Shown here piece by piece: positions 5,836-54,971 of a stretch of 64,000 bases of DNA. This DNA comes from Narcine bancroftii (taxonomy: Eukaryota): assembly GCF_036971445.1 (NCBI RefSeq), contig NC_091476.1, positions 7,812,001 through 7,876,000 of the forward strand. The letters run 5' to 3'. The position numbers and the translations under genes were made by a program. A model generated the notes under the pieces. The model worked only from the letters and a program-made list of their open reading frames with translations. It was not told where the DNA came from and searched no databases. Position 1 is the first letter of the stretch, and each line of letters begins with the position of its first letter.

Positions 5836-6314
5836 TTTGGAACTAACTATTTGCTAATGAACCAGCTTGACGAGCTATTCAGTTTCATCAAACTGCTATG
5901 TTAAAATAAGGATTAAACCAGGAAAGACCACTTCGCAACAACTTTGGCCCTAGATTTAGACACAGCAGAGAAGCCTGCAATCCACAAAACTTCTCCTTAT
6001 CAGCACTGGTGTCTAACTTTAGAGACTTGTTCTACTGATTAATGAGGCAGCAGCTTGTTATAGTTATACTCAGGTAATCATCCTTAATATACATTCCCAG
6101 GCTACTCACCATGATTCTCAGGTACAGTTTGTTCCACCAGGAGCATCAAGATGGTACATCATTAGGAAAGCAAAATACTCTGAGTCCTCAATGGTGACTC
6201 CACATCCATGAAGCCTCAGGTTCTTTGGCTGAGGCAATGGTTCTTCAGGGCAGAATCCTAAACCCAACCATCTTCACATCAACAAAAACTCATTGCAATT
6301 CCTGCAATGTCCAT

Positions 6315-6475
6315 AGGACGAAAAGGTATAAAGCCAACTTTTTGGGCTTGAGCCCTTCACCAAGGCATATATCTTGACGAAGACCTTTGAACGCTGCGTG
6401 ACTTGTTGAGTTTCACCAGTACTTTTGTGCATTAACTACAATCATAGTATCTGCAAACTTTCTCGTTTCACTTAG
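6315..6475. mobile_element. Penelope-like terminal fragments in opposite orientations
   Basis: gggcttgagcccttcaccaagg (reverse of the ttgatgaagggctcaagccc motif) lies next to forward cttgacgaag...gttgagtttcaccag. Confidence 0.55.
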
Positions 6476-6572
6476 TTCATTGCAGAGTACCTTCAGAAAA
6501 AGTTGGCACAACATACTGGCTGAAGGCCCTATATCCTGTGCTGTTGTGTTTTATGCTCTATGTTATTTGCAA

Positions 6573-6705
6573 TTTTCCCCTGCAGCCGCTGCAACCGTGT
6601 CTGCCTGTCCCACATCGGACTTGTCAGCCACAAACGAGCCTGCAGCTGACGTGGACTTTTACCCCCTCCATAAATCTTCGTCCGCGAAGCCAAGCCAAAG
6701 AAAAG
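6573..6705 (+). mobile_element. RTE-clade LINE (AviRTE-like), 5'-truncated 3' end, 8-bp TSD
   Basis: Near-identical to the 3' end of the copy at 32788-33480. TSD ATTTGCAA at 6565-6572 and 6706-6713. Confidence 0.9.
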
Positions 6706-8129
6706 ATTTGCAACATGGAGGTATGCAAGCTGGGTATTGCAGTGGTAATTTTGTCTTATATTGCCCAATCATTATCATACATTTTTTTCAATTTTCCTTT
6801 TGCTATCAAATGGAATGCAAGGTTTCAAATTAAAATATAATAATAGTTTATTTTAATTTGAAGTTGAATTTTAATTTTCAAAGAGGAAGCTCAATTTAAG
6901 TGAACAAGTTATTAGTTCAATTCAACGAGCCTTCATTAACTAATCTTTACTCATATGTGTACAAAAGACCAATTCAAGCTGAGAGGTTGAGATTAATGTT
7001 ATCAATTGTATTGGAAACAAGCAATGGACTCGGCAGCACATTTTGGAATGGATGTTGGAAACTGAAGCGAATGAATCCACACTATTGTCATTCAAGCATA
7101 AGTTAATAATTTCTCTGAATTTGTTGTGACCTTGTGAGTTGTGTGAGAAGCAAAGTAATAATTTTGAAATTTAATTTTTGGGGAAAAATTCCTCAAGGGA
7201 TAGATCAAAAGTGTGAAAAGCAAAAAAAAAAGGAGTAAATTCTTTTTGAATTAAATATAGCTGTTACCAGAGGACAAAGGGCTAAATTAAAATTAGAACT
7301 TAAATTTCTCCTAAGAAATAAAACAAAGGGGTATGCTCTCGGCCCAGCATCAAGTAACATTCAGATTATTTCTGGCACCAAATAGCACTGGAATAATAAA
7401 CTGCATTCATAGTGTTGTGCAACATGACCTCCTCAGCTGAGAAAAAGGGAAACTGAAACCTACCAAATACATCAATTAACACCTGTTTAACAGCAAATCA
7501 CACAAAAATCAATTTAACCCAGAGTAGGCTGGACGATTGATGATTTCCAAGTTGACCATGGCTATCACAAAATTGTACCCATTGCAAAATTAGACTGGGC
7601 ATTTCCACTTGCTATTTATATGAGTGAGTTTGATATTTTTCCAACCTGATTCACATAGTAAATTACATTTCTCTTTCAAAACCATTGATTTCCATCCTTA
7701 CTGACATTCAAACTCAAGGTGTAACCTGTCATTGCTTGGAGTAGGTAAGTGCAACATTGGATTTTATATATTTTTTTGCTTATATCACTACTTCAAGACA
7801 TCATTATATCTTGATTGGCATTGTCTGACCTGACTTGACAGCTTTGGAATTTACTCCCTTGTTCATTTACCTCCAAAAATTGGATACCTTTCATGTGTTA
7901 ACAGTGCAGGAAAGGGGCTTTCATTTCATGATGTCTGCACCGGACATGATGCCAAATTAAACTAAATCGTTGCTGTTTGAGAGAAAGGGATGTGGAAGAG
8001 AACATGGAGCTACTGAAAGTAGTCAAGGTAAGAATTACTTTAAGAATTGGCTGATTATAATAAAAAAGAAACAGAAAATAAATTGAAACAACCTGTGTCA
8101 GGATTATATTAAAAATTATTACCTGGATT

Positions 8130-12125: not shown

Positions 12126-12404
12126 TAATCATTGACCCTATTTCTGCCAAAAATGGGTCCCATAATGAGTCCACAGCTGGATTCAGCCACCAGTCACCAT
12201 GCAGTGTTGCACTGTAAGGCTTTGAACGCTGACAGAGCGCTATGCTTTGGTTATAGTATCTGTGGTTTGTGGTTTATTTTAAAATGCTCCTGAAGCTTAA
12301 TTTTATTTTCAATGAAGTTTCTCAAGGTTAACCAAATGAACAAGCATCCAACAAAAAAAAAACACTGGATGAGCTCAGCAGGTTGATGTTAACGTTGATG
12401 TCAT

Positions 12405-12899
12405 ACCTTGATGAAGGGCTCAAGCCTGAAATGTTGGTCATGTATCTTTACCTTTGCCATATAAAGTGCACCAAAGAAAAGGTACAAGGACGGCCTAAAG
12501 AAATCTCTTGGTGCCTGCCACATTGACCACCGCCAGTGGGCTGATATCGCCTCAAACCGTGCATCTTGGCGACTCACAGTTTGGCGGGCAGCAACCTCCT
12601 TTGAAGAAGACCGCAGAGCCCACCTCAATGACAAAAGGCAAAGGAGGAAAAACCCAACACCCAACCCCAACCAACCAATTTTCCCCTGCAACCGCTGCAA
12701 CCGTGTCTGCCTGTCCCGCATCGGACTTGTCAGCCACAAACGAGCCTGCAGCTGACGTGGACATTTACCCCCTCCATAAATCTTCGTCCGCGAAGCCAAG
12801 CCAAGAAGATAAAGTGCACTATTTAACCTGCTAAGTTTCCCCAGCTTTCTGTTTTTCTTTACTTCAATCGCAGTGTCTTCAGACTTTCGTGTCTTACTC
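12405..12899 (+). mobile_element. Penelope-like terminal fragment (hosts an RTE insertion), 13-bp TSD
   Basis: ccttgatgaagggctcaagcctgaaatgttgg...cctgctaagtttccccagc; flanked by ACGTTGATGTCAT (12392-12404) and ATGTTGATGTCAT (12900-12912). Confidence 0.7.
12472..12808 (+). mobile_element. RTE-clade LINE (AviRTE-like) 3' fragment, 11-bp TSD
   Basis: Encodes PKKRYKDGLKKSLGACHIDHRQW...FPCNRCNRVCLSRIGLVSHKRACS*. TSD ATAAAGTGCAC at 12461-12471 and 12809-12819. Confidence 0.92.
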
Positions 12900-13719
12900 A
12901 TGTTGATGTCATCTATTTCTTCCCCTCAACCTGCTGAGCTCCTCCAGCAGTTTGTTTTATGCTCCAGATTTCAGCCTCTTGTATCTGACAAACCCTATAA
13001 CTGCAAAGGCCAGCTGTGTGGTCTGCATTGTGAAATGAGGATTGAGCAATTTCTGATGGTGTGCCATGCAGTAATTAAGTAGTTCTCAAAACCTTTGAGT
13101 TTGTGTACGTTGAACAAGAGAAGGAATCAATAAGGGAACTGTCTACAGGCTGAAGATGTGTAGTACGAGGCTAGTGAAGATGCAGGTCTGGGGCAGAGGA
13201 GGCCGAAGATTTCTGGAGAGAGAGAAAAATTGAGTTAATATTTCAGGTTAATGATTTGTCATCAAAGCCAACATTAATCCTGCTTCTCCATTGATAATAC
13301 CTGATTGCTTGAGTAATACAAGCAATCTCTTTTATTTTAAGTTTCCGGCATCTGCAACTTTTAGCTTTTGATCCAAGATTCCTTTGCTTGAACTGCAGAA
13401 ATTCAACTAAAATTAGTTTAAATCAAAGTATTTAAACTGGAGAAATGCATCTTGGGGCACTCATGTGAAATGCGTGTGAGTGTAAATGTGAGTATTCGAG
13501 GACTGTATTAGAAGGGGAGAGTTGAGGACCAGCATGGACAGAGCTCCCCTTTCCCCTTTTCCCCCCCCCGCCCCCCCCACAACCCCCAGTCCCAAATTAT
13601 TTATTAGCTTAACAACACATAAATTCATCAAGGATGTGTGTGGATATCACAGTAACTGTAAATTTGGTACATTTCATTTACTCAATGAATTTCTATAGAG
13701 TCAAATGAGATGGGAGGGG

Positions 13720-18177: not shown

Positions 18178-18422
18178 TGAGGAGCTCGTCGAAAGAATCA
18201 AAGACTTGTTGATCCAAACCAAGGCTTTTATTAGCAAAAGGCAGGAGCTCTTCACAGGTGGCCGACCAGTCCGGAATGATCCGACCTGGCTAGGGACACA
18301 ACCCTTTAAGGCCCAGACAGTAGGCGTGGCTAAGCTCTCAGCCAATCGCTGTAAGCACAGTCTAGATACTGTAACTATATACACTATATACATTGGGTTA
18401 GGGTTAGGGTTGTACTATTACA
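18178..18422 (-). mobile_element. Solo LTR (about 245 bp), 5-bp TSD GGGAC, containing a telomeric-repeat replacement
   Basis: TG...CA ends; GGGAC at 18173-18177 and 18423-18427; AATAAA on the minus strand; near-identical to 50198-50437. Confidence 0.88.
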
Positions 18423-18799: not shown

Positions 18800-20080
18800 T
18801 TAGAAGAATGAAAGGGGATCATGGAAATTATGAAAAGCATAGATAAGATAGAGGTGGAAGTTGTTGCCATTGATGGCGAAGAGGAAGTGTTGGATCATCT
18901 TGAAAACATCAAGATTTATAGGTCCCCGGGGCTGGATGCGATATACCTCAGATCATCGCCAGCTTTCGCAACGACAACGGCAGAGTGGTCTCACTTTTGA
19001 AAGAATGAAGATCCTTCATTGATGGGGGAGACTAGAACCAAGGGTTATAGCCTCAAGATTCTGGGTGGTAGATTTAGGATGGAGATGAAGAGGAATTGTT
19101 TTTCTCAGAGGGTGGCATAAATCGTCCCCTTGGTACCTACCCCTGTGACTGCAGGAGTTTCTCTGCTTGCACCCACACCTCTTCGCTCACCATCATTCAG
19201 GGCTCCAAACAGCCTTTCCTTGTGAATTTGCAGGGGTCATCTACTGCATCTGGCGTTCCTGTTGTGGTCTCCTCTATAACGGAGAGACTTGGGTCAGACT
19301 GGGAGATAGCTTTGTTGAGCTCCTCAGCTTTGCCCGCTGCAGTAGCGTGGATCTCCCAATGGTCACCCCTTTCAATTTCCCATCCCATTCCATTGCTGAC
19401 ATGTCTGTCCATGGTGTCATGCACTGCCAGACTGAGACTATTGCAAATAGATGAACAAAACCTCATCTTTCAACTGGGCACCCTCCAACCAGATGGCAAT
19501 AACCTCTCTGGCTTTTGTTTAAACACCCCCCCCCCTCACTTCCTCCCCCCCACCCCGTCGCCTTCCCCCAGCTCTGTTTTTCTCCCTTTTCACTGTCTCC
19601 TTTCACACAGACAAAATCTATTCTTACCTCTCCCCTTATCATATCCAATTAACACCCTTTTGTTAGTCTGGACTCCTTCCCCAGGCTATTCTCTATTCTG
19701 ACATTTCCCATATTTTGTTTATTCTGTTATTATTTGCATATTTCTTGAAGAAGGGCTCAGGCCCGAAATATTGGCAATATAACTTTGGCTCCTATGGGCA
19801 CTGAAAGACCAGCTGAGTTCCTCCAGCATTTTGGTATGTTTTTACCACATCACAGCATCTGCATACTTTCGTGTTTCACTCATGAATCTATGCATTTTGC
19901 TGCCCATTGAAGCAAGGGAGGTGATCTCAGTAAATACATTTAAGACAAGGTTGGATAGATTTTTACAATGTAGGGGAATTAAGGGAAAATGGCAGGTCGG
20001 TGGAGATGCGCCTATCATCAGATGAATGACGGAGCAAGTTTGATGGGCCATATGGCATACTCCTGCTCCTATTTCTTATG
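18800..20080 (+). mobile_element. CR1 3' fragment hosting two nested insertions (18877-19016 and 19124-19880)
   Basis: gaatttagaagaatga...ttttctcagagggtgg | gaatctatgcattttgctgccc...FKTRLDRFL...tactcctgctcctatttcttatgtt. Confidence 0.75.
19124..19880 (+). mobile_element. Penelope-like element 3' part: GIY-YIG endonuclease pseudo-ORF and terminal repeat
   Basis: CEFAGVIYCIWRSCCGLLYNGETWVRLGDSFVELL...EQNLIFQLGTLQPDG, the GIY-YIG pattern of Neptune-type PLEs. Flanked by CATAAATC (19116-19123) and CATGAATC (19881-19888). Confidence 0.88.
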
Positions 20081-21313: not shown

Positions 21314-23225
21314 CTATAGGTACATTAAACGTAAAAAATTAGTGAGGGATAGAATTGGACCCCTTGTAGATAGGGAGGGTAGGCTATGTGAAAAGTCAGA
21401 GGAGATGGGGGAAATTTGAAATGATTTATTTTCCTCAGTATTCACTAGGGAAAAAAATATTGTACCAGTTGAAGTAAATAAAAATAGTGGGGAGATCATG
21501 AATCATATAAGGATAACCGAGGAGGTAGTGATGGCAGTGTTAAAAAAGATAAAGGTGGACAAATCTCCGGGTCCAGACAATGTATTCCCAAGGACACTCA
21601 GGGAGACTAGTGTACAGATAGTGGGGCCATTAACAGAGATATTTAGGATGTCACTGGTCACGGGGGTAGTGCCAGAGGATTGGAGGGTGGCTCATGTTGT
21701 TCCACTGTTTAAGAAAGGGACCAAATGTAAGTCTGGAAATTATAGACCTGTGAGTCTGACGTCTGTGGTGGGTAAGTTGATGGAAAGTGTTCTGAGGGAT
21801 GGCATTTACAAATATTTGGAAGAAAAGGGATTGATAGGTAGTAGTCAGCATGGCTTTGTCAGGGGTAGATCATGCTTACAGATTGATGAAGGGAAGGCTG
21901 TGCATGTTGTCTATTTAGACTTTAGTAAAGCTTTTGACAAATTTCCCCATAGGAGGTTAGGAAAAAATGGCATTAGGTATAAATAAGGAGGTAGTGAAAT
22001 GGATTCAGCAATGGTTGGATGGGAGGTGTCAGAGAGTAGTGGCAGAAAATTGTTTGTCAAATTGGAGGCCGGTGACTAGTGGAGTTCCTCAGGAATCGGT
22101 CCTGGGTCCACTATTGTCTGTTATATATATATATATATATATTAACGATCTGGAAGAAGGGGTGATGAATTGGATAAATTTGCAGATGATACAAAGATTG
22201 GTGGTATTGTGGACAGTGAGGAAGATTACCGTAGCTTAAAAAGAGATATAGGAAAGTGAGAGGAGTGGGCTGAGAAATGGCTGATGGAATTTAAATACGG
22301 ATAAGTGTGAAGTGTTGCATTTTGGAAAGGCAAATCTAAATAGGTCATATACATTAAATGGTAGACAATTGAGGAGTGCAGAGCAACAAAGGGATTTCTT
22401 CTTTGGCTTGGCTTCGTGGACAAAGATTTATGGAGGGGTAAATGTCCTCGTCAGCTGCAGGCTCGTTTGTGGCTGACAAGTCTGATGCGGGACAGGCAGA
22501 CACGGTTGCAGCAGTTGCAGGGGAAAATTGGTTGGTATGGTAAATAGTACCCTCAAAGTTGATATTCAGGTAGATAGAGTGGTGAAGAAGGCATTTGGAA
22601 TGTTGGCCTTCATATATCGGAGTATTGAATTCAAGAGTTGGGATGTTATGATGAAATTGTACAAAGCATTGGTGAGGCCAAATTTGGAATACTGTGTACA
22701 GTTTTGGTCACCAAATTATAGGAAGGATATAAACAAAATAGAGAGAGTGCAGAGAAGGTTCACGAGAATGTTGACAGGATGTCAGGGTTTGAGTTACAGA
22801 GAAAGGTTGAGCAGCCTGGGGCTTTTTTTCTCTGGAGCGTAGAAGATTGAGGGGGGATTTGATGGAGGTGTTCAAGATTTTAAAAGGGACAGAGAGAGTC
22901 AACGTGGATAGGCTTTTTCAATTAAGAGTGGGGGATATTCAAACCAGAGGCCATGGTTTGAGATTGATGGGGGAAAATTATAAGAGGAACATGAGGGGAA
23001 ATTTCTTCACGCAAAGGGTGGTTGGGATGTGGAATAAGCTTCCGGCGGAGGTGGTTGAAGCAGGGATGTTATTTACATTTAAGGAAAGACTGGATAATTA
23101 CATGGAGGGGAGAGGATTGGTGGGGTATGGACCAGGTGCTGGTCAGTGGGACTAGGAGGGTGGGGATTTGTTCTGGCATGGACTAGTAGGGCCAAATTGG
23201 CCTGTTCTGTGCTGTATATGGTTAT
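21314..23225 (+). mobile_element. CR1 LINE (second subfamily), 5'-truncated, with nested RTE
   Basis: KVDKSPGPD, WRVAHVVPLFKKG..GNYRPVSLTSVVGKLME, VYLDFSKAFDK, LEYCVQFWSPNYRKD, FFTQRVVGMWN. Confidence 0.93.
22396..22535 (-). mobile_element. RTE-clade LINE (AviRTE-like) short 3' end inserted in CR1
   Basis: tcttctttggcttggcttcgtggacaaagatttatggaggggg...gggaaaattggttgg, the same 3' end as the other copies; no clear TSD. Confidence 0.88.
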
Positions 23226-23829
23226 ATGGTATATGTGGATGCACCCTGGCCTGGAGAAATGTTGTTTCATCTGGTTGTGTATGTACAGTTAGGTGATAAA
23301 CTTGAACTTGATGTCTTTAAGAAGTTAACAAACTGTTGGCTTTCTTTGCAAGAGGTATGGAGCATAAAAATCATGATGTCTGGATGGAACTTTATTACAT
23401 TGGTTGCCTTCCCTTCAATCTACATCACCTGGGGCTTTCCAGCTGAGACTGGTCTTTGTGGCAATATGCTCTGTGCCTGTTAAAGAGGAACACCTCTATT
23501 TATGTGTCCAGGATCTCACTCACTGCTTCTTTTCACATTGCTAATTAGCATAGCCACGAGGGCGGAGGAGGTTGTGGTGAGACCTAATGGAGGGTCACAG
23601 TTAGGGTAAATAGGAGGACATTTTTCCTCACAGCAGAGGTGTCCAAAACTAAATGCAAAAGTTATGAGTAAGGGATTATGAGGTTTAGAGGAGAGCTTAC
23701 GAAGAATATCTTCACTCATCTAGATATTTTTTAAATGTCAAGAAGGTATTTTCCTCCATCATCCTCTCAAGCAGAGCATTCCATGTTCCAACCACACTCC
23801 CTCCCTCTCTCTTTCTGATTTGAATGCAC

Positions 23830-26012: not shown

Positions 26013-26161
26013 NNNNNNNNNNNNNNNNNNNNNNNNNNNNNNNNNNNNNNNNNNNNNNNNNNNNNNNNNNNNNNNNNNNNNNNNNNNNNNNNNNNNNNNN
26101 NNNNNNNNNNNNNNNNNNNNNNNNNNNNNNNNNNNNNNNNNNNNNNNNNNNNNNNNNNNNN
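26013..26161. other. Assembly gap (149 N)
   Basis: Run of n. Confidence 1.
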
Positions 26162-31999: not shown

Positions 32000-32320
32000 A
32001 GCTCTCCACCCCCCCCCCTTCCTTCTCTATTCACAGAGCCATCTCTCTGCCCCTTGCTTGCTGTTGTGCCCTCCGTCCCTTAACCACCTATTACATCCTG
32101 CCTTTGGAATCGTGCTCTGCCCCTACCCCTCCTTCTCTATCATTTTGTTCAGGTGCCTGTCAACATTTCTCCACATCTTGATGAAGGGCTCAAGCCCATA
32201 ACGTTGGTTATGTATCTTTATCTTTGCTATATAAAGTACTCTGTTTGACCTACTGAGTTTCTCCAGCATTGTCTTTATACTTCAACCATGGTGTCTGCAA
32301 ACTTTTGTGTTTTACTACTA
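32000..32320 (+). mobile_element. Penelope-like terminal remnant
   Basis: cttgatgaagggctcaagccc...gacctactgagtttctccagcatt; same family as 12405-12899. Confidence 0.75.
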
Positions 32321-32787: not shown

Positions 32788-33480
32788 ATTTCTTCTTTCT
32801 TCTTCTTTGGCTTGGCTTCGCGGACGAAGATTTATGGAGGGGGTAAAAAGTCCACGTCAGCTGCAGGCTCGTTTGTGGCTGACAAGTCTGATGCGGGACA
32901 GGCAGACACGATTGCAGCGGTTGCAAGGGAAAATTGGTTGGTTGGGGTTGGGTGTTGGGTTTTTCCTCCTTTGCCTTTTGTCAGTGAGGTAGGCTCTGCG
33001 GTCTTCTTCAAAGGAGGTTGCTGCCCATCAAACTGTGAGGCGCCAAGATGCACGGTTTGAGGCGTTATCAGCCCACTGGCGGTGGTCAATGTGGCAGGCA
33101 CCAAGAGATTTCTTTAGGCAGTCCTTGTACCTTTTCTTTGGTGCACCTCTGTCACGGTGGCCAGTGGAGAGCTCGCCATATAACACGATCTTGGGAAGGC
33201 GATGGTCCTCCATTCTGGAGACGTGACCCATCCAGCGCAGCTGGATCTTCAGCAGCGTGGACTCGATGCTGTCGACCTCTGCCATCTCGAGTACTTCGAC
33301 GTTAGGGATGTAAGCGCTCCAATGGATGTTGAGGATGGAGCGGAGACAACGCTGGTGGAAGCGTTCTAGGAGCCGTAGGTGGTGCCGGTAGAGGACCCAT
33401 GATTCGGAGCCGAACAGGAGTGTGGGTATGACAACGGCTCTGTATACGCTTATCTTTGTGAGGTTTTTCAGTTGGTTGTT
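32788..33480 (-). mobile_element. RTE-clade LINE (AviRTE-like), longest copy, nearly intact ORF2 C-terminus
   Basis: LKNLTKISVYRAVVIPTLLFGSESWVLYRHHLRLLERFHQRCLRSILNIHW...QLRWMGHVSRMEDHRLPKIVLYGELSTG...; one premature stop near 33030; (GAA)n-like tail. Confidence 0.95.
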
Positions 33481-50197: not shown

Positions 50198-50437
50198 TGT
50201 AGAGCTCGTCGAAAGAACCAAAGACTTGTTGATCCAAACCAAGGCTTTTATTAGCAAAAGACAGGAGCTCTTCACAGGTGGCCGACCAGTCCGGAATGAT
50301 CCGACCTGGCTAGGGACACAACCCTTTAAGGCCCAGACAGTAGGCGTGGCTTAGCTCTCAGCCAATCGCTGTAAGCACAGTCTAGATACTGTAACTATAT
50401 ACACTATATACATTGGTGATGGATCTGTACTATCACA
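50198..50437 (-). mobile_element. Solo LTR (240 bp), 5-bp TSD TATAG
   Basis: TG...CA ends; TATAG at 50193-50197 and 50438-50442. The minus strand carries gattgg, cttaaa and AATAAA in promoter-to-polyA order. Confidence 0.9.
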
Positions 50438-53734: not shown

Positions 53735-54971
53735 TGTTAAGAGCCCAAAGTCCCCAAAACCCAGCAGCAATAGACAGTCACCAAGACTAGTAGTTACTTA
53801 AACAAAAGCTGTTTTTAATCATCTTTAAACATGAAAACAGAATCAAACTTTAACTTATCTCTATTAACTTAACTCGTGTATGTAATGTGTGTGTAAATTT
53901 AAGAAAAGTTCTTTGGTTCACAGTTCCATCTCACTTTTCATTCTTCCAAGTTCTCTGGTTGCAGGCAATTCTTATCTCTTCCTTGGCTTGGCTTCACGGA
54001 CAAAGATTTATGGAGGGGTAATGTCCACGTCAGCTGCAGGCTCGTTGGTGGCTGACAAATCCGATGCGGGACAGGCAGACACGGTTGCAGGGGAAAATTG
54101 GTGGGTTGGGGTTGGGTGTTGGGTTTTTCCTCCTTTGTCTTTTGTCAGTGAGGTGGGCTCTGCGGTCTTCTTCAAAGGAGGTTGCTGCCTGCCGAACTGT
54201 GAGGCGCCAAGATGCATGGTTTGAGGCGATATCAGCCCACTGGCGGTGGTCAATGTGGCAGGCACCAAGAGATTTCTTTAGGCAGTCCTTGTACCTCTTC
54301 TTTGGTGCACCTCTGTCTCGGTGACCAGTTTCTTATACTGTGCACGGAATTTAACATATATAAAGTTCACCAGGCTTTGGTGCTCAAGAGGTAAATGTTT
54401 ACCACTCAGGAAGGTCCTCATAGGGTTTGCAGAGAGTGATTTGTTCCGGGATTTCCAAAACTGAGGTACCACCATTAGTCGCCTCAATTCCAAGAGAAAC
54501 ATCAGACAGATAGCACTTCCAGCCATCTGCCACTCTGGAGTTTTCTGTTTCAGTTCCAACCAGCTTCTTGGCTTGCACTGTTCATCTTTCCCTCTCATAT
54601 CAACTGTCAGAAAGCCCATGTGACTCTCTCACTTGCAAAACCCCTGACCTTCTCCAGCAAACAATAGGAGTTGGTCTTCTTGGTCAAGCTGTTTTCTTCA
54701 GGTAAACAAAAACCCAGGAATGACCTTTCTATGCACTCTGTCTACCCCCTTGCAAAGAACTCTTAACAGCCAGAGTGTTTCCTGCTTGTTGCTTAAATGA
54801 CATCATTTCAATTAGCACCTACTTGTGAAATGTGCACAGCATTCTCCATAGTTTCTGTAAAGTTACTGAATATAAATTCTTCAATATTTCAAATATGATC
54901 TGTTTTAAAATGTGTGTATGTATGTCACCTACTCTAATTTTACCAATGTATCTCCCAAATATTCCATTACA
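53735..54971 (-). mobile_element. Long solo LTR (about 880 bp net) with nested RTE
   Basis: TGTTAA...TTACA termini; ATTAAA on the minus strand near 53815; no coding capacity; TSD not clear. Confidence 0.6.
53976..54329 (-). mobile_element. RTE-clade LINE (AviRTE-like) 3' fragment, 7-bp TSD
   Basis: Matches 32805-33165; TSD TTCTTAT at 53969-53975 and 54330-54336. Confidence 0.92.

What the first reader, a model, noticed from the sequence alone, without database searches (positions are those of the whole stretch)
32788..33480. Young AviRTE-like RTE family in an elasmobranch: horizontal-transfer candidate
Five copies occur in 64 kb (6573, 12472, 22396, 32788, 53976). They are near-identical, retain many CpGs, three have exact TSDs, and they sit inside CR1, PLE and LTR elements but are never interrupted themselves, so this is among the youngest families here. 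The ORF2 end (GSESWVLYRHHLRLLERFHQRCLR...MEDHRLPKIVLYGEL...CLSRIGL.SH.RACS) and the tail (aaatcttcgtccgcgaagccaagcc) match my recollection of AviRTE, an RTE lineage known for horizontal transfer between birds and filarial nematodes. A recent burst in a marine cartilaginous fish would suggest an independent invasion, perhaps via a parasite or prey.
Basis: partly seen in the sequence, partly recalled or inferred. Interest (0 to 1): 0.75.

Follow-up and report, generated by a model that had tools for sequence, protein, structure and literature searches.

The report
Ray retrotransposon with sea-urchin sister
Five short, near-identical 3' ends of an RTE-type jumping gene lie in this 64-kb stretch, likely from an electric ray; the family is a cousin of the bird/nematode element AviRTE rather than AviRTE itself, and its nearest relatives found outside rays are in long-spined sea urchins, which likely reflects an old horizontal transfer in the sea.

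Summary
Observation confirmed: five 5'-truncated copies (130-690 bp, 2.4-7.1% apart, CpG-rich, three with exact 7-11 bp target duplications) of one RTE-clade LINE. Its closest proteins are all from the electric ray Narcine bancroftii (83-91%), so the host is likely an electric ray. It is not AviRTE: 57-65% identity to suboscine-bird RTE proteins (taken as AviRTE), a ray+bird clade is rejected (AU p=0.0002), the terminal repeat is (GAA)n rather than (ATG)n, and the recalled tail motif is shared across the wider aquatic RTE group. Instead, the ray family is sister to RTEs of two Diadema sea urchins (bootstrap 100, SH-aLRT 99). A frame-shifted urchin gene model matches the window's shifted frame at 29-31 of 42 residues, above a fully randomised-synonymous null (about 20; p<=0.003), so silent sites look unsaturated across an echinoderm-chordate split. 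No other cartilaginous fish was among 57 species-named hits, though a CR1 control found two. Horizontal transfer in the family's past is therefore likely; donor, direction and date are open, and slow shark clocks mean 'young' may be tens of millions of years. Verdict: new member of a known, transfer-prone kind.

The parts
32789..33480 (-). Copy c4, longest: 3' end of the RTE ORF (about 207 codons, C-terminal CxxC...HxxxC motif, one internal stop at 33027-33029, stop at 32857-32859), about 48-nt 3' UTR and (GAA)n tail; no clear TSD
6565..6713 (+). Copy c1 (body 6570-6705) with 8-bp TSD (6565-6572, 6706-6713); 3 nt of the TSD overlap the element's 5' end
12461..12819 (+). Copy c2 (body 12466-12808) with 11-bp TSD (12461-12471, 12809-12819), 6 nt of 5' microhomology; interrupts a short repeat with an empty paralogue at 32177-32316
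22394..22536 (-). Copy c3, inside a CR1 RT remnant (about 21420-23236); no TSD, apparent small target-site deletion
53969..54336 (-). Copy c5 (body 53976-54329) with 7-bp TSD (53969-53975, 54330-54336); 9-bp internal deletion
32177..32316 (+). Empty (uninterrupted) paralogue of the short repeat that c2 interrupts; shows c2 is an insertion

Best explanation
These are five 5'-truncated, dead copies of one RTE-clade LINE family, likely written into the genome by target-primed reverse transcription from a full-length element elsewhere, in a host that is likely an electric ray, and the family likely entered this lineage's history by horizontal transfer from the marine RTE pool, where its nearest relatives found are in Diadema sea urchins. 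Shown: shared 3' ends, variable 5' truncation, 7-11 bp TSDs starting with A, 5' microhomology, low divergence, tree position, rejection of a clade with bird or other vertebrate RTEs. Inferred: the insertion mechanism (from established LINE biology), the host's identity, unsaturated silent sites (read indirectly from one frame-shifted 42-residue stretch), and that the ray lineage was the recipient. The urchin need not be the donor: both may have received it from a third marine host.
For: Structure; TSDs begin with A in 3 of 3, as PMC6007223 (section 16) reports for animal RTE LINEs with A-rich tails. Host: top hits are Narcine bancroftii at 83-91%; a CR1 remnant of the window is also closer to Narcine (76-77%) than to Hypanus or Scyliorhinus (59-64%) over the same stretch. 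Tree: window+Narcine 100/97, with two Diadema species as sister 100/99 (40 rows, LG+C20); same sister in the 53-row, 223-row and 268-row trees (17 Narcine rows + 2 Diadema, support 0.986). AU rejects ray+birds (p=0.0002) and ray+all vertebrate rows (p about 4e-85) (23 rows). Silent sites: the D. antillarum model P0046 reads the last codons in a shifted frame and matches the window's shifted frame at 31 of 42 (c2) and 29 of 42 (c4) residues; nulls keeping the window's own protein and redrawing synonymous codons gave means of 19-21 and reached the observed value in 0, 19, 10 and 63 of 20000 draws (also 0 of 20000 in three nulls on a 38-residue version). Four metagenome relatives show only about 50% third-position identity, both upstream and in the last 40 codons, so the region is not specially conserved. 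Patchiness: of 240 listed hits (of 723 passing), 57 carry a species name; 13 are Narcine and none is another cartilaginous fish, while the CR1 control's 120 listed hits include Hypanus (2) and Scyliorhinus (1).
Against: No genome was available, so there is no copy number, landscape, full-length copy or direct DNA comparison. The silent-site test rests on one 126-nt stretch inferred from a protein; other relatives are also fairly alike there (10-12 of 20 residues, 13-14 of 20 third positions compatible, against 15 and 17 of 20 for Diadema), and the ORF is strongly C-ending (96 of 205 third positions), so codon bias raises the baseline. Overall identity to Diadema (68% over 192 aa; 70% over 360 aa) is no higher than to shrimp or lancelet RTEs. 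Absence from other shark and ray proteomes is weak: TE-derived gene models are sporadic and only the best 120 hits per search were listed. At least eight coded organisms hold near-identical words; if they span rays and sharks broadly the family is older and vertical within that range. The deep tree among aquatic RTEs is unresolved.
Confidence: 0.62

Rival explanations
1. The family is old and vertically inherited in cartilaginous fishes, merely active late in electric rays; any transfer went the other way (into urchins) or the ray-urchin link reflects an ancient shared lineage with codon bias.
For: Sharks mutate slowly (7e-10 per site per generation in the epaulette shark, PMC10587355), so old copies look young. 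Near-identical words occur in at least eight coded organisms of nine studies. Protein-database absence is weak evidence. C-ending codon bias is strong.
Against: No other cartilaginous fish among 57 species-named hits, against three such hits for the CR1 control; the sawfish orthologue of a Narcine gene model that carries an exonised piece of this RTE lacks it (one locus); a vertebrate-only clade is rejected; the shifted-frame match beats a null that already includes the element's codon bias.
Confidence: 0.25
2. A recent, ongoing exchange: the family is shared at 95% or more identity with a non-ray marine animal such as a parasite or prey.
For: Seven coded organisms other than the source organism hold 23-89% of the sampled 31-letter words of c4, which needs about 95% identity or more; their names are hidden.
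Against: They are most simply related electric rays. For two of them (B, D) other runs of the same sample hold 0.00 of the words (4 of 4 such rows), which is odd for a high-copy host repeat and may mean cross-contamination or index gaps. No non-ray protein above 73% over the full stretch was found, and 0 of 14 metagenome loci exceed 79%.
Confidence: 0.08
3. The element is AviRTE proper, an independent invasion of the bird/filarial-nematode family into a ray.
For: The 11-mer before the tail equals the reverse complement of the AviRTE 3' primer in PMC4844689, and the 3' UTR resembles AviRTE-mobilised SINE tails.
Against: 57-65% protein identity to suboscine RTEs over the near-full stretch, where AviRTE subfamilies are 83-99% alike in DNA; AU p=0.0002; different terminal repeat; the motif is also in unrelated-host relatives.
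Confidence: 0.02
4. The ray-urchin grouping is an artefact (contamination of the urchin assemblies, or tree error).
For: Both Diadema rows are single, decayed gene models.
Against: Two Diadema species form their own clade (100/99, stem 0.12) distinct from Narcine; one lies on a 48.8-Mb contig; no long branches are flagged; they share a distinctive C-terminal sequence with the ray element.
Confidence: 0.03

Closest known systems
AviRTE (Suh et al. 2016, PMC4844689)
   Same: RTE superfamily, same aquatic subgroup; short 3' UTR with the same terminal motif; similar C-terminal zinc-finger end; TSDs of similar size (13 bp example in the paper).
   Different: 57-65% protein identity to suboscine proxies; separate clade (AU p=0.0002); (GAA)n instead of (ATG)n tail; host a cartilaginous fish; nearest relatives sea-urchin elements.
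Unnamed aquatic RTEs of shrimp (Penaeus), lancelet, coral, carp, medaka, softshell turtle; the 'RTEs from aquatic animals' around AviRTE in Suh et al.; shrimp RTE families of PMC5055719
   Same: 65-73% protein identity, single EN+RT ORF of about 1,060 aa, shared 3' UTR motif, patchy marine distribution with tree-host conflict.
   Different: The ray family forms its own well-supported branch with Diadema elements; I could not match it to a named Repbase/Dfam family (no such library here).
Sea-snake RTE-Snek/RTE-Kret (bioRxiv 10.1101/2020.02.27.968685) and BovB (PMC6036668)
   Same: RTE LINEs that entered vertebrates horizontally; for the sea-snake LINEs the closest marine relatives were 75-85% identical with no donor found, a similar situation.
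   Different: Different host class; relationship of this family to them not tested (no sequences available to the tools).

Membership tests
RTE-clade non-LTR retrotransposon | Single ORF with AP endonuclease and reverse transcriptase | tested here: inconclusive
   The window holds only the C-terminal 207 codons (0 Pfam hits); the full-length relative P0006 (71-72% identical over that stretch) has Exo_endo_phos and RVT_1, and Narcine P0003 (89%) has RVT_1.
RTE-clade non-LTR retrotransposon | Short 3' UTR ending in a microsatellite-like tail, 5'-truncated copies, variable TSDs | tested here: met
   About 48-nt UTR, (GAA)n-like tail, five different 5' ends, TSDs of 8, 11 and 7 bp.
RTE-clade non-LTR retrotransposon | Groups with RTE proteins | tested here: met
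   Nested among RT+EN proteins of the aquatic group together with suboscine RTEs. BovB and other named RTEs were not in the trees.
AviRTE | 83-99% DNA identity to AviRTE subfamilies | tested here: not met
   By protein proxy: 57.2-65.4% to five suboscine proteins over 193-209 aa and 70.3% to a sixth over 145 aa. That these are AviRTE is inferred from their hosts (suboscines carry AviRTE). The published consensus 3' halves were cut in the supplement view.
AviRTE | Monophyly with bird/nematode AviRTE | tested here: not met
   AU p=0.0002 (7 rows against 16); sister group is Diadema. No nematode rows were available.
AviRTE | About 40-bp 3' UTR with the conserved terminal motif | tested here: met
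   Matches the 3' primer and SINE tails of PMC4844689 (compared by eye), but also present in other aquatic RTEs, so not diagnostic.
AviRTE | (ATG)n terminal repeat (read from the paper's 3' primer and ManaSINE1) | tested here: not met
   All five copies end in GAA/AAG-type repeats.
AviRTE | About 800-bp conserved 5' UTR and 3.2-kb ORF | not testable with these tools
   No full-length copy in the window and no genome held.
Horizontally transferred TE (standard criteria) | Element tree conflicts with host tree | tested here: met
   Ray+urchin 100/99; vertebrate-only clade rejected.
Horizontally transferred TE (standard criteria) | Element synonymous divergence far below host-gene divergence | tested here: inconclusive
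   Indirect shifted-frame test on 42 residues favours unsaturated sites (p<=0.003); no full-ORF Ks, no host-gene comparison.
Horizontally transferred TE (standard criteria) | Patchy distribution among host relatives | tested here: inconclusive
   Only Narcine among named cartilaginous hits with a positive CR1 control; identities of the eight coded read-set organisms unknown.

The most novel reading that the evidence does not exclude
An RTE LINE jumped between a sea-urchin lineage and the ancestor of electric rays, is absent from all other cartilaginous fishes, and became one of the rays' most abundant young repeats (5 copies in 64 kb, exonised into many gene models): a first documented invertebrate-to-elasmobranch LINE invasion, possibly still shared at 95% or more identity with a non-ray marine vector among the hidden read-set holders.
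Probability: 0.3. Interest if true: 0.62.

Novelty: new member of a known kind. Interest (0 to 1): 0.42.

Why it matters
Horizontal transfer of RTE LINEs is well documented in birds, nematodes, snakes, ruminants, teleosts and shrimp, but I found no report for electric rays or a ray-urchin pair. Cartilaginous fishes have slow clocks and CR1-dominated genomes, so a lineage-restricted invasion would be a datable marker for torpediniform phylogeny (insertions with clean TSDs), a test of whether benthic feeding or parasites carry LINEs into elasmobranch germlines, and a source of new exons (Narcine gene models already include pieces of it). It is a new case of a known process, not a new mechanism.

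Tried and rejected
Whole-genome copy survey: no genome held. Direct DNA comparison with AviRTE consensus: supplement rows are cut at 400 characters, 3' halves and the 370-element tree unseen; these unseen parts bear on exact placement. Read-laying to tell whether coded organisms are ray relatives gave no result, so their identity is open. No RNA holder listed on record: no evidence on expression. 3' UTR hairpin as a recognition signal: a 5-bp inverted repeat exists and is predicted in two distant relatives, but not in the lowest-energy folds of the ray copies, and no fold beats shuffles (z -0.12 to -0.94, 4 of 4): unsupported. LTR and Penelope labels for host repeats: 0 of 14 Pfam queries hit. 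Protein atlas gave only unnamed clusters, recognition below threshold. Earlier scan findings: none returned. Search of 50%-cluster representatives added no non-Narcine, non-Diadema member to the clade; of 20 representatives looked up, none was another cartilaginous fish RTE. Tandem repeat scan: nothing at the copies. Rows left out of trees: one search kept 222 of 274 BLAST hits by coverage; searches used hand-picked sets of 53, 40 and 23 rows; one search kept 268 of 418.

Full report
Observation. BLASTN of the finding against the window finds four more copies. All five end at the same 3' motif followed by a GAA/AAG-type tail and are cut at different 5' points (130-690 bp). They differ by 2.4-7.1% (1.5-4.3% without CpG-type changes; 10 of 10 pairs), and keep CpG at 0.48-0.84 of expectation against 0.26 for the window. 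c1, c2 and c5 have exact target duplications of 8, 11 and 7 bp, each starting with A; chance gives such an abutting repeat in 130 of 20000 trials. c2 interrupts a short repeat whose empty paralogue lies at 32177-32316, and c3 sits in a CR1 RT remnant. Insertion into an LTR element was not confirmed. The label 'Penelope' for c2's host repeat is recalled, not from a call.

What it is. The c4 translation (205 aa, one stop read as X) finds 210 longer and 513 similar-length proteins; 120 of each were listed. The best are Narcine bancroftii gene models at 83-91%; then come shrimp, lancelet, mantis shrimp, carp, sea urchin, coral, medaka, sea slug and turtle proteins at about 57-73%, and suboscine birds at 57-64%. 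Full-length relatives are single ORFs of about 1,060 aa with AP endonuclease and RT. A CR1 remnant of the window is also nearest to Narcine. So the host is likely an electric ray or close relative (inference), and the element is an RTE-clade LINE. By established LINE biology, a full-length master elsewhere is transcribed, its protein binds the RNA 3' end, nicks target DNA and reverse-transcribes from the tail; early termination gives 5'-truncated copies, and second-strand joining through 3-6 nt of microhomology (seen in c1, c2, probably c4) leaves the TSDs. TSDs starting with A fit the pattern reported for animal RTEs with A-rich tails (PMC6007223, abstract and section 16 read).

Is it AviRTE? 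But that motif also closes distant marine relatives, the primer and ManaSINE1 show an (ATG)n terminal repeat where the ray copies have (GAA)n, and identity to suboscine proteins is 57-65% over the near-full stretch. I take the suboscine proteins (Pseudopipra, Manacus, Pitangus, Myiozetetes, Willisornis) to be AviRTE because suboscines carry it; that is an inference. They form their own clade (100/100), and holding them together with the ray family is rejected (AU p=0.0002). It works like AviRTE and belongs to the same aquatic group, but it is not a member.

Horizontal transfer. In four trees of 40 to 268 rows the window copy nests among Narcine rows and their sister is a pair of RTE proteins from Diadema antillarum and D. 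setosum (100/99 under LG+C20). Forcing all vertebrate rows together is rejected (p about 4e-85). The D. antillarum model happens to read the last codons in a shifted frame, where each residue depends on the true third codon position. It matches the window's shifted frame at 31 of 42 (c2) and 29 of 42 (c4) residues. Nulls that keep the window's own protein and redraw synonymous codons with the element's own usage average 19-21 and reach those values in 0-63 of 20000 draws (for a 38-residue version). Four metagenome relatives show about 50% third-position identity both upstream and in the last 40 codons, so the stretch is not specially frozen. Against this: it is one short, indirect stretch; four other relatives with shifted ends reach 13-14 of 20 compatible third positions against 17 of 20 for Diadema; codon usage is strongly C-ending; and raw identity to Diadema (68-70%) is no higher than to shrimp or lancelet elements because the urchin models are decayed. 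Sea urchins and bony fishes parted at least 600 million years ago (PMC5055719, passages), over which silent sites on the urchin side should be saturated (own knowledge), so at least one transfer lies between the two families. Direction is not shown.

Range among cartilaginous fishes. Of 240 listed hits, 57 carry a species name: 13 Narcine, none from another shark, ray or chimaera. A CR1 control listed Hypanus twice and Scyliorhinus once among 120, so such proteomes are in the collection. Twenty further look-ups added none, and a sawfish orthologue lacks the RTE piece found in a Narcine AVL9 model. This favours a ray-restricted invasion but weakly, since TE-derived gene models are sporadic. Public runs of eight coded organisms in nine studies hold 23-99% of c4's sampled words (20 holder rows of 24, four flagged as possible source). 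The family therefore is not confined to one labelled organism; whether the others are related rays is unknown, and for two of them sister runs of the same sample hold none of the words, so those rows are unreliable.

Age. About 1-2% non-CpG change per copy looks recent, but at 7e-10 per site per generation (epaulette shark, PMC10587355, passages) it equals some 14-30 million generations; even at a several-fold faster rate the copies would be millions to tens of millions of years old (rough inference, rate borrowed from another species). The invasion itself is older than the copies: Narcine holds at least two subfamilies differing by about 14% in protein.

Known context and novelty. RTE transfers into vertebrates from marine pools are known: sea snakes with nearest relatives at 75-85% and no donor (bioRxiv 10.1101/2020.02.27.968685, passages), BovB (PMC6036668, passages), shrimp (PMC5055719). 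The main text of the vertebrate-wide survey PMC7070016 does not mention sharks or cartilaginous fishes (passages; supplements not seen). Searches for electric ray, Narcine, elasmobranch or Diadema with RTE or transfer terms returned no report of this family (listings only, open-access library only; PMC13343379 and PMC13320814 checked by passages). It may already sit unnamed in Dfam/Repbase de novo libraries, which I could not search. Verdict: real feature, new member of a known transfer-prone kind; AviRTE link rejected; horizontal transfer likely (about 0.8 for some transfer between ray and urchin families, about 0.6 for the ray lineage as recipient). Interest 0.42.

Noticed in passing
window 18179-18421 and 50199-50437: Pair of solo-LTR-like elements, 98.6% identical over 215 bp, each ending in CA and flanked by a 5-bp duplication (read by eye); as young as or younger than the RTE copies.
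   Followed up: partly
window 18397-18411: In the first solo LTR about 10 bp are replaced by 2.5 units of the vertebrate telomere repeat, which may be a telomerase-patched break.
   Followed up: no
protein P0206 (Narcine bancroftii): A second, older and more decayed Narcine RTE lineage (58-59% identical) falls elsewhere in the aquatic group, near shrimp and teleost elements with weak support: possibly a separate invasion.
   Followed up: partly
proteins P0242, P0445 (Narcine bancroftii): Pieces of this RTE are included in Narcine gene models for mS40 and AVL9; the sawfish AVL9 lacks the piece: possible exonisation or annotation artefact.
   Followed up: partly
proteins P0280, P0374: CR1-like RT proteins 55-64% identical to the window's CR1 are filed under the bacterium Aeromonas cavernicola on short contigs, likely vertebrate DNA contamination of that assembly.
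   Followed up: no
window 19078-19884: Remnant that looks like a Penelope GIY-YIG end (recalled; no Pfam hit) followed by the short repeat family also found at 2826-2915, 6305-6472, 12401-12902 and 32143-32316; at 6305-6472 its two halves lie in opposite orientations.
   Followed up: partly
tree, rows P0038, P0072, P0165, P0168: Mantis shrimp, sea slug and coral RTEs form one supported clade (100/99), another likely cross-phylum transfer cluster in the same group.
   Followed up: no
window 26013-26161: 149-base assembly gap (N run).
   Followed up: no
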